From Ruditapes philippinarum (lineage: Eukaryota): DNA of 64,000 nt. The stretch is from positions 1 through 64,000 of the forward strand of contig NW_026866227.1 of the NCBI RefSeq assembly GCF_026571515.1. Direction: 5' to 3'. Below are positions 30,001 through 33,000 of this stretch, in pieces (position 1 is the stretch's first letter; every line of letters begins with the position of its first letter). The position numbers were made by a program.

Positions 30001-33000
30001 CAAAATCTTTCTGTTCAAATTACAATTTTAACCAAGATCTTTAGAACATATAATTTTCTCGTCTAGTGGATAGGAACATGGATAAAAGATGACACTTGCC
30101 GATATGATTTGTTAAATTATTCAAAGGCTAACTAGGACTTACATCTTCAAACAATATTTTGTTCATATTTTACAAGTAATGTCTTCGTGAAAAATGACTA
30201 TTGGAGGGGCCCTAAAACACAGATTTTTAACTCTAGTAAAGTCAGGATAGCAGACACTCTGATAAATCCTTTATTTACACATTTATGTGCAACAAATAAT
30301 CAATAGACAGTTCAACAGAGAAGTTAATTAAATAATGGGCTGTTGAAATTTAAACCAATACTTTTGTATATCACAAATAGGGCAGTCATATTTACATATT
30401 CTAAGAAAGCTGTTCTGAGTGATGATAAAATAGACAGCTATTGAAGTTAATTTGCACAAAATATTTACCATACATAATGGATTATTGATAAAATAACAAC
30501 TTAACAAACTTTCATATAATCATAATCAACATTAATTTTTTAATTTGAATTTAGCATTATTAACATTAAATAACACCAAAATTATTTAAAAGATACTTTA
30601 TAATCAAATATTTTTATTTCTTATTTCATGATAAGGTTTATTGTTTCAGAAATCGTATAATTATTATCCCTTACAACGTTATAAACATTAACAAATAATG
30701 TCATTAAATCCTTAAAAATGTCAATTCCAATTTGTACAAAATAGTATAAATCAGACAGTTTTAATTGACATTAAATCTTCTACAGATATATAATACTAGG
30801 ATGTTTCAGTGTGAAATGTTTTAGTTTCCTCCTGGCTCAGCGGAATATTTCCAGGAGGTGCGACGAAATAATCTTCATCACGTTTCACTGCATTTTGAAG
30901 AATAGATTTTTTACATCCACCTTCTGTCACAATATCATCACGAAGCAGGAGTTCACGATCCTCTAACACTGAATACATAGGTTCTACATCGTCTGTATTA
31001 ACCATATATAACTGATTTGCATATTCTATAGCACTCCGCAACCTGTCTACACCTGCTTTATTATTCACCTCCACTAATGACAGTCGTTCAAGATGATTAA
31101 TCATTTCATCTGTAAGGTCTGGGACAGGAGGAAGATTCTTTGGGTTTATTTCCTTCCACTGGGGTTCATTTGGTATCTTGGAGTTTAAACAACAAACTCT
31201 CTGACCAAAGTTAACACTGCATAATCTATTTAGTCTCAACACTTTGAAAGCTATATTAAGAGCCATTGTTTCAATAAACAAATTAAACTGCACACCAAAA
31301 AAGATTAAGATAGCAAAGTACACAGTATCAATGTTTTCTTTTTTAAATGTGACCTTAACCTTCAATTTCTTCTTCTTTGGCTTGCATTGCTCTGATCTCT
31401 GCTTTACGTATTTCTACTTTTTCCTGAAATCCCTGAAATAAAATAAAAGAGGAAACATGTAATAACCAGTATGATTCAGGATAAGACACAGCAGCATTTG
31501 TTGTTGTTTTATCCTGCTACTGTCTATATCATCAGCTGGATAAAGCCTTGCCCGATAAACTTATCTATCTCCGGTCATTTAGTCACATGATGACGTCACA
31601 TGTTAAGCAGCAAAAAGAAACTGCAAATAGATGCTATTTTATTAGGGAAAAAGAAGAATGAAACCATTTAATTATTCTAAAAACATGATAAAAAGCAGGA
31701 TTAATCAAATACATGGTTGATGTCGGGATGGAGAAAGTTTATCCGGTTCACGGCGCCAGTGAATCTTGGCTCGCTAAAGCTCGACAAAATACACTTTCTC
31801 GCTCACCGGATAAATCTTCTCCATCCCTACATTTTTTCTATATATTTTGTTGGTTGGGTTTTACGACACACAAATACAGTATAGGTCATGTGGTAACTTT
31901 CCAGAGAAGATCTCAGGTGCCATTCTGTGCATTATTCCAGGCACAAACGGGCACCTGAGTAAAACCGACCACATTCTGAAAGTTAGAGCAGTAATTGTAG
32001 AACCAGACTAAATGCCCAACAAGGTATTCCATAATGGTTCTGATTAAATATATAAGAAATTCCTTGATAATAAAAACAACAAAAAATAAGTTCATTGTTT
32101 AAATTTTTGAAAACTAACCTAACAGTTTATTTAGTTTGATTTGAATATGGTTTAAACATATTTATTTAAACTCGATTGCGAAACAAGTTCTTTCAACTTA
32201 TATTAATCACTTTCGAGTCCGCTTCCTGGAACCAACCAGTACTGGTGTCATATGAAGAAACATGGCCATGACCGGATAAGAGCTCAAACCAATGATCCAT
32301 GGGTTGAGAGGCAGACACCTAACCCACTGCTCTCCTTTAGTTTGAATATCAGCTACAAATAAAATGTGTATATTGTAATAATATTATAATATATAATAAT
32401 ATTGTAACACATGAACCGACATTTGTATTTATAAAAATATACAGTTACACATGAATTACACATGTTAAAAACAGTCAGTTTAGTTCAACAGGTAGATTGT
32501 TCAATAAGTTGGAATATGAATCAGGGGACCAGGGTTCTATACCCAGAATGTGCATATAAATATCATTTTCTTTGTGATATTTCAAGAAATCTTATCCATG
32601 GTCAATTGTACTGTCCCTCTGCTCTGGCAGAAGTTACCAGTTCCTTGCAAAAGTGAAAGTACTAATACTGGTTAACTGCCTGACAGTATACCTAGGAACA
32701 ATGCAGTGGCTCTGATGAATTCAAAGTGGCTTACAACTGAACTACCAACACCACCAACACATATTTTAAAGAAATACTGTTTTTACATCTGAATTAACTT
32801 ACTGACATGTTAAAGTTTTATAAATATATCTTACAGCAAGTGGTTTATATATACTGTGTGTAAACTGAGATCCCAGTAACATTGAAAACACTGCAGCTGC
32901 TGTTACTGTTAAATATCTTTTCCATGAAACTCCAGCAGGCATACTTCAATCAAACTGTAATATAAAATTAATTAATCATTATTTATCCATAAGATGTATA

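What the first reader, a model, noticed from the sequence alone, without database searches (positions are those of the whole stretch)
31266..31432. GATC starts 88 nt after the BRAWNIN stop, and the spacer looks like a mini-intron or alternative acceptor
Seen: the spacer has no ATG and no polyA hexamer, but has a pyrimidine tract and tgcag| acceptor 21 nt before the GATC ATG (exon would begin at 31287). There are only weak donors, at 31353 (TAAG|gtcaca) or 31359 (GAAG|gttaag). Inference: either a ~66-nt intron shortens the linker to ~22 nt, close to the 24-nt first linker, or the acceptor lets upstream exons skip directly to GATC. From memory (needs verifying), Drosophila GatC is also in a dicistronic mRNA with the pol-gamma accessory subunit, which would suggest GATC repeatedly ends up on other mitochondrial transcripts.
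Basis: partly seen in the sequence, partly recalled or inferred. Interest (0 to 1): 0.7.

Follow-up and report, generated by a model that had tools for sequence, protein, structure and literature searches.

The report
Unspliced spacer in a three-gene mRNA
The 88 bases between the BRAWNIN stop and the GATC start in this clam-like genome look like an ordinary, unspliced spacer inside one messenger RNA that carries three mitochondrial genes in a row, not a tiny intron.

Summary
On the minus strand the BRAWNIN (UQCC6-type) stop is at 31357-31355 and the GATC ATG at 31266. The 88 nt between them have no ATG and no AATAAA/ATTAAA. A tgcag| acceptor-like site puts an exon start at 31287, and GT dinucleotides sit at 31353 and 31359. 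None of this exceeds chance: 14.9% of 88-nt windows lack both motifs, 0.18 such acceptors are expected per 88 nt, and both donors lack the +3 purine and +5 G of the three real donors. The mini-intron reading is not supported. Four of four short public contig ORFs from close relatives read colinearly through the spacer. None of five cluster members shows a spliced or fused form. The locus is a heterodont-bivalve gene with three cistrons, SMIM4/UQCC5-like, BRAWNIN/UQCC6-like and GATC. Spliced database proteins confirm the exon 1/2 and exon 3/4 junctions. A spliced BRAWNIN protein and a spacer-plus-GATC ORF both come from Logan contigs of 1170 nt. The likely mechanism, which is inferred, is reinitiation after BRAWNIN across an AUG-free spacer onto a strong-context AUG. 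The recalled Drosophila GatC/pol-gamma-35 dicistron is confirmed. No searched paper links GATC to BRAWNIN or SMIM4.

The parts
35605..35779 (-). Exon 1, coding part: SMIM4/UQCC5-like ORF, first 58 codons plus 1 base. The ATG is at 35779 and a second in-frame ATG at 35746. The donor is TTTT|gtaagt. The 5' end of the exon (TSS) is unknown.
   Evidence: Pfam PF15114 UPF0640, E=2.8e-19. The Atlas cluster is named UQCC5. The junction to exon 2 is confirmed by the spliced protein P0115.
34582..34697 (-). Exon 2: the rest of the SMIM4-like ORF (stop TAA at 34596-34594) plus 12 nt, then donor CTAG|gtatgt.
   Evidence: P0115 matches 32 of 33 residues of this exon plus the split codon. The exon 2 to exon 3 junction is inferred from consensus sites only.
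32835..32954 (-). Exon 3: 12 nt of linker, then the BRAWNIN/UQCC6-like ATG at 32942 and 36 codons. The donor is GCT|gtaaga, phase 0.
   Evidence: Pfam PF14990 DUF4516, E=2.6e-17. The Atlas cluster is named UQCC6 family. P0120 residues 1-36 are identical.
31355..31432 (-). Start of exon 4: the last 25 codons of BRAWNIN plus the stop TAA at 31357-31355. The acceptor is ttatttcag|GGA.
   Evidence: P0120 residues 37-61 are identical, so the exon 3/4 junction at 31432 is confirmed.
31267..31354 (-). The 88-nt intercistronic spacer. It is AUG-free, has no AATAAA/ATTAAA, and is retained in contigs.
   Evidence: It is read through colinearly by P0001, P0117, P0118 and partly P0119.
31288..31310 (-). 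Acceptor-like site (pyrimidine-rich tract plus tgcag|); an exon would start at 31287.
   Evidence: 14/20 pyrimidines, and 0.18 such sites are expected per 88 nt. No spliced product was seen.
31348..31363 (-). The two weak donor-like GTs, GAAG|gttaag at 31359 and TAAG|gtcaca at 31353.
   Evidence: Both have a pyrimidine at +3 and no G at +5, unlike the real donors.
30796..31266 (-). GATC ORF, 156 codons plus stop, single exon. The start context is acaATGg.
   Evidence: Pfam GatC PF02686, E=9.7e-11. PDB GatC chains, E=3.8e-5. Identical to the NCBI-held protein P0116. 78% identical to Mercenaria mercenaria GATC. The first 30 residues have 3 R, 2 K and no D/E.
30760..30765 (-). First poly(A) hexamer, ATTAAA, about 30 nt after the GATC stop. 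Further AATAAA hexamers lie at 30642 and 30618.
   Evidence: Use of this signal gives a predicted mRNA of about 1104 nt counted from the first ATG.
31591..31598 (.). Perfect TGACGTCA palindrome in intron 3, 159 nt upstream of exon 4. It is a candidate internal promoter element and is untested.
   Evidence: 4 in the window against 0.36 expected.

Best explanation
The 88 nt are an ordinary unspliced intercistronic spacer inside the last exon of a four-exon gene. The mature mRNA of that gene carries three ORFs in a row. They are a SMIM4/UQCC5-like microprotein (92 codons), a BRAWNIN/UQCC6-like microprotein (61 codons) and the mitochondrial GatCAB subunit GATC (156 codons). The organism is a heterodont bivalve, not human. 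This is shown: the three ORFs belong to those families. The exon 1/2 and exon 3/4 junctions exist in public spliced sequences. Contigs run without a break from inside the BRAWNIN coding end through the spacer into GATC. This is inferred: GATC is translated from this mRNA mainly by termination-reinitiation. Ribosomes finishing the short BRAWNIN ORF leave a 40S subunit that scans 88 AUG-free nucleotides. That distance is long enough to reload initiator tRNA. The subunit then starts at the first AUG it meets, which has the best context of the three starts (A at -3, G at +4). The acceptor-like tgcag and the weak GTs are chance features of AT- and T-rich non-coding sequence.
For: Family identities: Pfam UPF0640 E=2.8e-19, DUF4516 E=2.6e-17 and GatC E=9.7e-11, each searched exon by exon; Atlas cluster names UQCC5 and UQCC6; PDB GatC chains. 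Splicing: P0115 (59 aa, Logan contig of 1026 nt) joins exon 1 to exon 2 exactly as modelled. P0120 (61 aa, on 6 Logan contigs, the longest 1170 nt) equals exon 3 plus exon 4 residue for residue. Spacer retained: P0001 (contig 1134 nt), P0118 (1170 nt) and P0117 (1466 nt) start 10-17 nt upstream of the BRAWNIN stop. They translate the whole spacer in the GATC frame, matching the window at 31/32, 31/32 and 34/34 residues. P0119 (1139 nt) starts at the GTG just on the intron side of the proposed acceptor (7/8 residues). P0118 and the longest P0120 contig have the same length, 1170 nt. The predicted mRNA of 175+116+120+693 = 1104 nt plus a 5'UTR fits 1134-1170 nt. No poly(A) hexamer lies in the spacer. 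Twelve ATGs lie in the exons upstream of the GATC ATG (8+0+3+1), which argues against leaky scanning. Start contexts are tttatttaATGt, gaagtATGc and aaacaATGg. The sloth1/sloth2 (SMIM4/C12orf73) bicistron is reported as conserved from choanoflagellate to lamprey (passages of PMC9681215).
Against: That P0118 and P0120 lie on the same contig rests on equal length (1170 nt), not on seeing the contig. Whether the 1134-, 1139- and 1466-nt contigs are RNA or DNA is not stated by any tool. The exon 2/3 junction is inferred only. The full SMIM4-like protein did not come back from those contigs (1 candidate only). No GATC ORF from a 1026-nt contig appears in the cluster. Assembled contigs show dominant forms only. 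Reinitiation after ORFs of 92 and 61 codons is generally held to be inefficient (recalled general knowledge). In Drosophila only 45 of 159 dicistronic loci appear exclusively dicistronic (passage of PMC4528330), so a separate GATC transcript is quite possible. ATG-freeness of the spacer is not significant (18.8% of windows).
Confidence: 0.62

Rival explanations
1. GATC is expressed mainly from its own shorter transcript, started by a promoter inside intron 3. The tricistronic RNA is then a read-through form that contributes little GATC protein.
For: A perfect TGACGTCA palindrome lies 159 nt upstream of exon 4 (4 in the window against 0.36 expected). Most Drosophila polycistronic loci also have monocistronic transcripts. 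The third position behind 12 ATGs is unfavourable for translation.
Against: A transcript from about 31560 to the first or second poly(A) signal would be about 820-960 nt, shorter than the 1134-1170-nt contigs. Such a transcript would still carry ATGs at 31497, 31458 and 31387 before GATC. The palindrome's role was not tested and it is orientation-free.
Confidence: 0.17
2. The acceptor at 31287 is used in a minor or conditional isoform. It could be joined from exon 2 to give a SMIM4-GATC bicistron with a 33-nt linker. It could instead be joined from exon 3 to give an in-frame BRAWNIN(1-36)-GATC fusion.
For: The acceptor is as pyrimidine-rich as real ones of this gene (14/20 against 11-18/20). 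The exon 3 donor is phase 0, and the 21 nt before the GATC ATG are open in the GATC frame.
Against: 0 of 5 members of the 90% cluster show such an N-terminus. 0 of 114 homologues have a precomputed DUF4516 or UPF0640 domain, and 0 of 21 longer representatives do. The residues upstream of the GATC Met are not conserved in other bivalves (P0002, P0003, P0004, P0013). Chance alone gives 0.18 such sites per 88 nt.
Confidence: 0.1
3. The spacer holds a real 66- or 72-nt intron that is removed in part of the transcripts, shortening the linker to 22 or 16 nt.
For: GT...AG boundaries exist, a TTAAT branch-like motif lies about 19 nt before the AG, and 66 nt would keep the frame relations.
Against: Both donors have a pyrimidine at +3 and lack G at +5. 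The three real donors read gtaagt, gtatgt and gtaaga. Four of four contig ORFs are unspliced.
Confidence: 0.06
4. The acceptor is a spliced-leader trans-splice site that cuts a polycistronic precursor into a separate GATC mRNA, as in nematode or tunicate operons.
For: An acceptor shortly upstream of a downstream cistron is the layout of such operons.
Against: The list of groups with spliced-leader trans-splicing in PMC7986045 (passage) does not include molluscs. All four contig ORFs are colinear with the genome across the site.
Confidence: 0.02
5. GATC is reached by leaky scanning, stop-codon read-through or an internal ribosome entry structure in the spacer.
For: The first start (35779) has a weak context. 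Leaky scanning is the model given for Drosophila sloth2.
Against: 12 ATGs precede the GATC ATG. GATC is in another frame than BRAWNIN (88 = 3x29+1), and a second stop follows 3 codons after the BRAWNIN stop. The spacer folds like its shuffles, z = -0.06.
Confidence: 0.03

Closest known systems
Drosophila sloth1-sloth2 bicistronic gene (orthologues of human SMIM4 and C12orf73/BRAWNIN)
   Same: Same two families in the same order on one transcript with a short linker. The architecture is reported as conserved in choanoflagellate, sea squirt and lamprey (PMC9681215, passages read).
   Different: Here the two small ORFs are each split by an intron, and the linker is 24 nt across an exon junction instead of 5 nt. 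A third, unrelated cistron (GATC) follows after 88 nt. GATC is not mentioned in that paper's main text (0 occurrences).
Drosophila DNApol-gamma35 / GatC dicistronic mRNA
   Same: GatC shares a mature mRNA with another nuclear-encoded mitochondrial protein (PMC5753349, passage read). GatC plus a PolG2-type domain appears in fused gene models of Rhynchophorus ferrugineus and Triops cancriformis.
   Different: The partner is different. In those fused models GatC is N-terminal, so it is the upstream cistron. Here it is the last of three.
Upstream-ORF / reinitiation-controlled mRNAs (scanning model)
   Same: Short ORFs lie ahead of the main ORF, followed by an AUG-free gap of tens of nucleotides and a strong start context. 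The paper on intercistronic length and reinitiation efficiency was seen only as a title in a reference list. Its result, that longer gaps up to about 80 nt help, is recalled.
   Different: The upstream ORFs here are conserved functional proteins of 92 and 61 codons, longer than typical regulatory uORFs.
Spliced-leader operons of nematodes and tunicates
   Same: Several cistrons in one primary transcript, with an acceptor just before a downstream cistron.
   Different: No leader is known in molluscs (passage), and contigs are colinear across the site.

Membership tests
Polycistronic nuclear mRNA (here tricistronic) | Two or more non-overlapping conserved ORFs on the same strand in one transcription unit | tested here: met
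   UPF0640, DUF4516 and GatC ORFs all lie on the minus strand between 35779 and 30796.
Polycistronic nuclear mRNA (here tricistronic) | One mature, spliced RNA molecule carries the ORFs | tested here: inconclusive
   Spliced proteins P0115 and P0120, and the spacer-plus-GATC ORFs, come from contigs of 1026-1466 nt. P0120 and P0118 both come from 1170-nt Logan contigs. The contigs themselves could not be read.
Polycistronic nuclear mRNA (here tricistronic) | No 3'-end signal or promoter between the cistrons | tested here: inconclusive
   No AATAAA or ATTAAA in the spacer. A promoter cannot be tested; a TGACGTCA palindrome lies in intron 3.
Polycistronic nuclear mRNA (here tricistronic) | The downstream ORF is translated from the shared RNA | not testable with these tools
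   This needs ribosome profiling or proteomics tied to transcript structure.
sloth1-sloth2 / SMIM4-BRAWNIN bicistron | A UPF0640-family ORF directly upstream of a DUF4516-family ORF, with a short linker in the mature RNA | tested here: met
   a 24-nt linker in the model. The exon 2/3 junction itself is inferred from gtatgt and ttacag sites.
Spliceosomal intron in the spacer | GT...AG boundaries | tested here: met
   GT at 31353 and 31359, AG at 31289-31288.
Spliceosomal intron in the spacer | Donor resembling the gene's real donors (purine at +3, G at +5) | tested here: not met
   gtcaca and gttaag against gtaagt, gtatgt and gtaaga.
Spliceosomal intron in the spacer | A spliced product exists | tested here: not met
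   0 of 4 contig ORFs covering the site are spliced. 0 of 5 cluster members show the expected N-terminus.
Spliced-leader operon | The lineage has spliced-leader trans-splicing | tested here: not met
   Molluscs are absent from the list in PMC7986045 (passage). No mollusc report appears among the 12 papers listed, of which I read titles and abstract starts only.
GatC (subunit C of Glu-tRNA(Gln) amidotransferase), mitochondrial form | GatC domain plus a basic N-terminal extension free of acidic residues | tested here: met
   PF02686 E=9.7e-11 at residues 75-135. PDB 2df4_C E=3.8e-5. The first 30 residues have 3 R, 2 K and 0 D/E.
Drosophila-type GatC/PolG2 dicistron | The partner ORF has the PolG2-type anticodon-binding domain | tested here: not met
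   The partners here are UPF0640 and DUF4516.

The most novel reading that the evidence does not exclude
In this bivalve lineage GATC may have no transcript of its own. It would then be made only as the third cistron of the ancient SMIM4-BRAWNIN mRNA. Output of a factor needed for mitochondrial translation (Gln-tRNA(Gln) formation) would be tied by sequential reinitiation to two microproteins that assemble complex III around mitochondrially made cytochrome b. The 88-nt AUG-free spacer would be the tuning element. Together with the GatC/PolG2 dicistron of insects and crustaceans, and a TRIAP1-like/GatC fused model in a sturgeon, this would make GATC a gene that repeatedly joins other mitochondrial genes' transcripts.
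Probability: 0.3. Interest if true: 0.65.

Novelty: new variant of a known kind. Interest (0 to 1): 0.4.

Why it matters
Taken alone, the spacer is ordinary. What matters is the setting. A conserved two-microprotein mRNA, known from flies, carries here a third and unrelated mitochondrial gene. None of my searches found a paper linking GATC with BRAWNIN, C12orf73, UQCC6 or SMIM4 in this way. Natural animal mRNAs with three conserved protein cistrons are rare; FlyBase counted seven tricistronic loci. Such mRNAs are useful test cases for how ribosomes reach downstream ORFs. If the arrangement is shared by other molluscs, it would be a clean comparative system for reinitiation spacing. It would also be a second independent case of GATC being co-transcribed with a mitochondrial partner.

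Tried and rejected
- **Mini-intron:** rejected on donor quality and on 4 of 4 unspliced contig ORFs.
- **Spliced-leader trans-splicing:** rejected on lineage and on colinearity across the site.
- **Leaky scanning:** rejected because 12 ATGs lie upstream of the GATC ATG.
- **Read-through or frameshift from BRAWNIN into GATC:** rejected. The two ORFs are in different frames and a second stop follows 3 codons after the BRAWNIN stop.
- **Structured entry element in the spacer:** rejected, z = -0.06.
- **Solved structures of the two microproteins:** none found at E up to 1.
- **Other species carrying BRAWNIN or SMIM4 next to GATC:** the exon-wise protein searches returned one candidate each. No eukaryotic genome collection is on hand, so synteny in other molluscs stayed unchecked.
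- **Fused GatC models:** 21 of the 150 listed representatives were chosen for extra length and scanned. None carried the BRAWNIN or SMIM4 domain.
- **The paper on intercistronic length (PMC367994):** not held.
- **Supplements of PMC9681215:** the 3 files held as text name no mollusc and do not mention GATC the gene; the one match is a primer. Supplements not held may list more species.
- **Papers naming DUF4516 or UPF0640:** two unrelated papers only.
- **Joined exons:** Spliced models were tested exon by exon, and the joined step was left out.
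Full report
**What is there.** The window has about 31% G+C and one N run at 37541-37732, which I left alone. It is not human. The GATC protein it encodes is identical to an NCBI-held protein (P0116). It is 78% identical to GATC of the hard clam Mercenaria mercenaria, and the next named hits are other bivalves.

- An ORF ending ...EEIEG stops with TAA at 31357-31355.
- The GATC ATG is at 31266.
- The 88 nt between them (31354-31267) have no ATG and no AATAAA or ATTAAA.
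- tgcag|T puts a possible exon start at 31287, 21 nt before the ATG.
- GT dinucleotides sit at 31353 (TAAG|gtcaca) and 31359 (GAAG|gttaag).

**The gene around it.** I read upstream and scanned each exon piece on its own against Pfam. This gives a four-exon model.
- Exon 1 runs to 35605. Its ATG is at 35779, with a second in-frame ATG at 35746. It encodes the first 58 residues of a UPF0640 protein (E=2.8e-19).
- Exon 2 (34697-34582) finishes that ORF at TAA 34596-34594 and adds 12 nt.
- Exon 3 (32954-32835) has 12 nt, then the ATG of a DUF4516 protein (E=2.6e-17).
- Exon 4 starts at 31432 and carries the last 25 BRAWNIN codons, the spacer and the whole GATC ORF (PF02686, E=9.7e-11). An ATTAAA lies 30 nt after the GATC stop.

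The Atlas names clusters of these two small families "ubiquinol-cytochrome c reductase complex assembly factor 5" and "...factor 6 family". These are SMIM4/UQCC5 and BRAWNIN/UQCC6.

**Are the junctions real?** Two of the three junctions came back from the database as natural spliced proteins.
- P0115 (59 aa, Logan contig of 1026 nt) joins the end of exon 1 to exon 2 through the predicted split codon. It matches 32 of 33 exon 2 residues.
- P0120 (61 aa, seen on 6 Logan contigs, the longest 1170 nt) equals exon 3 plus exon 4 exactly.
- The exon 2/3 junction is inferred from CTAG|gtatgt and ttacag| only.

**Is the spacer spliced?** The 90%-identity cluster around the window's GATC has five members.
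- One is the 156-aa protein itself.
- The other four are ORFs called on short contigs that run upstream of the GATC Met.
- P0001 (189 aa, contig 1134 nt), P0118 (189 aa, 1170 nt) and P0117 (191 aa, 1466 nt) begin 10-17 nt before the BRAWNIN stop. They translate the entire spacer in the GATC frame, matching the window's frame at 31/32, 31/32 and 34/34 residues.
- P0119 (165 aa, 1139 nt) begins at the GTG immediately on the intron side of the proposed acceptor and matches at 7/8 residues.

So 4 of 4 are colinear with the genome across the proposed intron or its acceptor. None shows the residues expected after splicing from 31353, 31359 or exon 3.

P0118 and the longest contig with spliced BRAWNIN have the same length, 1170 nt. 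The model predicts 175+116+120+693 = 1104 nt from the first ATG to the first poly(A) site, which fits contigs of 1134-1170 nt with a short 5'UTR.

There are caveats:
- I could not read the contigs.
- Identity of the two 1170-nt contigs rests on length alone.
- Whether the other contigs are RNA or DNA is not stated.
- The full SMIM4-like protein did not come back from them.
- No GATC ORF from the 1026-nt contig is in the cluster.
- Assemblies show dominant forms only.

**Chance.**
- 18.8% of 88-nt windows on this strand have no ATG, and 14.9% have neither ATG nor the two hexamers.
- YAG with at least 14/20 upstream pyrimidines occurs 2.0 times per kb per strand, so 0.18 are expected in 88 nt. 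The gene's real acceptors score 11-18.
- Both donor candidates have a pyrimidine at +3 and no G at +5. The three real donors read gtaagt, gtatgt and gtaaga.
- The spacer with its flanks folds like its shuffles (z = -0.06).

**How GATC is probably made.** This part is inferred.
- Twelve ATGs lie in the exons before the GATC ATG (8, 0, 3 and 1 per exon), so leaky scanning is unlikely.
- GATC is in another frame than BRAWNIN, and a second stop follows three codons after the BRAWNIN stop. Read-through is therefore excluded.
- The start contexts improve along the RNA: T at -3 and T at +4 for the first ATG, A at -3 for BRAWNIN, and A at -3 with G at +4 for GATC.
- The simplest mechanism is termination after the short BRAWNIN ORF followed by renewed scanning over 88 AUG-free nucleotides. 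I recall that this length favours reinitiation. Of the paper on it I saw only the title in a reference list, and the paper itself is not held.
- Against this, upstream ORFs of 92 and 61 codons are long for reinitiation (recalled). In Drosophila only 45 of 159 dicistronic loci appear exclusively dicistronic.

A separate GATC transcript is therefore a serious rival. A perfect TGACGTCA palindrome lies in intron 3, 159 nt before exon 4, and the window has 4 against 0.36 expected. However, a transcript starting there would be shorter than the contigs and would still carry three ATGs ahead of GATC.

**The alternative-acceptor idea.** The exon 3 donor is phase 0, and the 21 nt after 31287 are open in the GATC frame. 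Exon 3 joined to 31287 would therefore give an in-frame BRAWNIN(1-36)-GATC fusion, and exon 2 joined to 31287 would give a SMIM4-GATC bicistron. I found no trace of either.
- 0 of 5 cluster members show such a form.
- 0 of 114 GATC homologues of 85-273 aa carry the DUF4516 or UPF0640 domain in the precomputed Pfam column.
- 0 of 21 longer representatives that I scanned carry it.
- The residues upstream of the Met are not conserved in other bivalves, whereas the Met-Ala-Leu start is.

A rare isoform cannot be excluded without reads.

**Comparison with what is known.**
- The first two cistrons are the known sloth1-sloth2 arrangement. The paper reports it as conserved in choanoflagellate, sea squirt and lamprey (PMC9681215; I read passages found by term search). 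GATC is not in its main text, and the three supplement files held as text name no mollusc.
FlyAtlas 2 states that DNApol-gamma35 and GatC share one dicistronic mRNA (PMC5753349, passage).
- GatC fused to a PolG2-type anticodon-binding domain also turns up in gene models of Rhynchophorus ferrugineus and Triops cancriformis.
- A TRIAP1-like (UPF0203) plus GatC model appears in Acipenser sinensis, flagged UNVERIFIED_CONTAM by its source.
- Searches for GATC together with BRAWNIN, C12orf73, UQCC6, SMIM4 or polycistronic terms listed no paper on this linkage. I saw titles and abstract starts only, and the 7 papers that hold both words are on unrelated topics by title.

**Verdict.** The mini-intron reading is not supported and the skipping acceptor remains unsupported. 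Co-transcription and the Drosophila parallel are supported. The spacer itself is ordinary. The three-cistron gene is a new variant of a known kind and is of moderate interest. Synteny in other molluscs, transcript ends and translation all stayed unchecked because no eukaryotic genome or read collection was available.

Noticed in passing
window 573-580, 10606-10613, 10622-10629, 31591-31598: The perfect palindrome TGACGTCA occurs 4 times against 0.36 expected. The copies at 10606/10622 and at 31591 share a wider CACAT(C/G)ATGACGTCACAT context. They may be promoter elements.
   Followed up: partly
window 32992-34079: About 38 tandem copies of a 31-nt unit fill most of intron 2 of the tricistronic gene.
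   Followed up: no
window 35861-36293: A 27-nt minisatellite of about 11-16 copies lies directly upstream of exon 1, where the promoter should be.
   Followed up: no
window 31720-31747 / 31805-31832: A 28-nt inverted repeat, 89% complementary and 57 nt apart, lies in intron 3. It resembles a small foldback element.
   Followed up: no
window 35746-35779: The first ATG of the SMIM4-like ORF is followed by tctcttttttcag|G, which itself looks like an acceptor. The Pfam match starts at residue 14. The true start may be the second in-frame ATG at 35746, possibly behind an upstream non-coding exon.
   Followed up: partly
window 31423-31432: A second in-frame acceptor (ggatttcag|GAA) lies 9 nt inside exon 4. 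The database protein P0120 uses the upstream one at 31432.
   Followed up: partly
window 41557-43833 (+): A 758-codon open frame that is acidic and Asn/Ser/Glu-rich, with no Pfam match. It is probably one large exon of a low-complexity protein.
   Followed up: partly
window 46893-47996 (+): A 367-aa ORF with an N-terminal CARD domain (E=7.2e-6).
   Followed up: no
proteins P0133, P0181 (not in the window): Other fused GatC gene models exist: RabGAP-TBC plus GatC in Mugilogobius chulae, and DUF4587 plus GatC in Echinops telfairi. They are probably annotation fusions of neighbouring genes.
   Followed up: no
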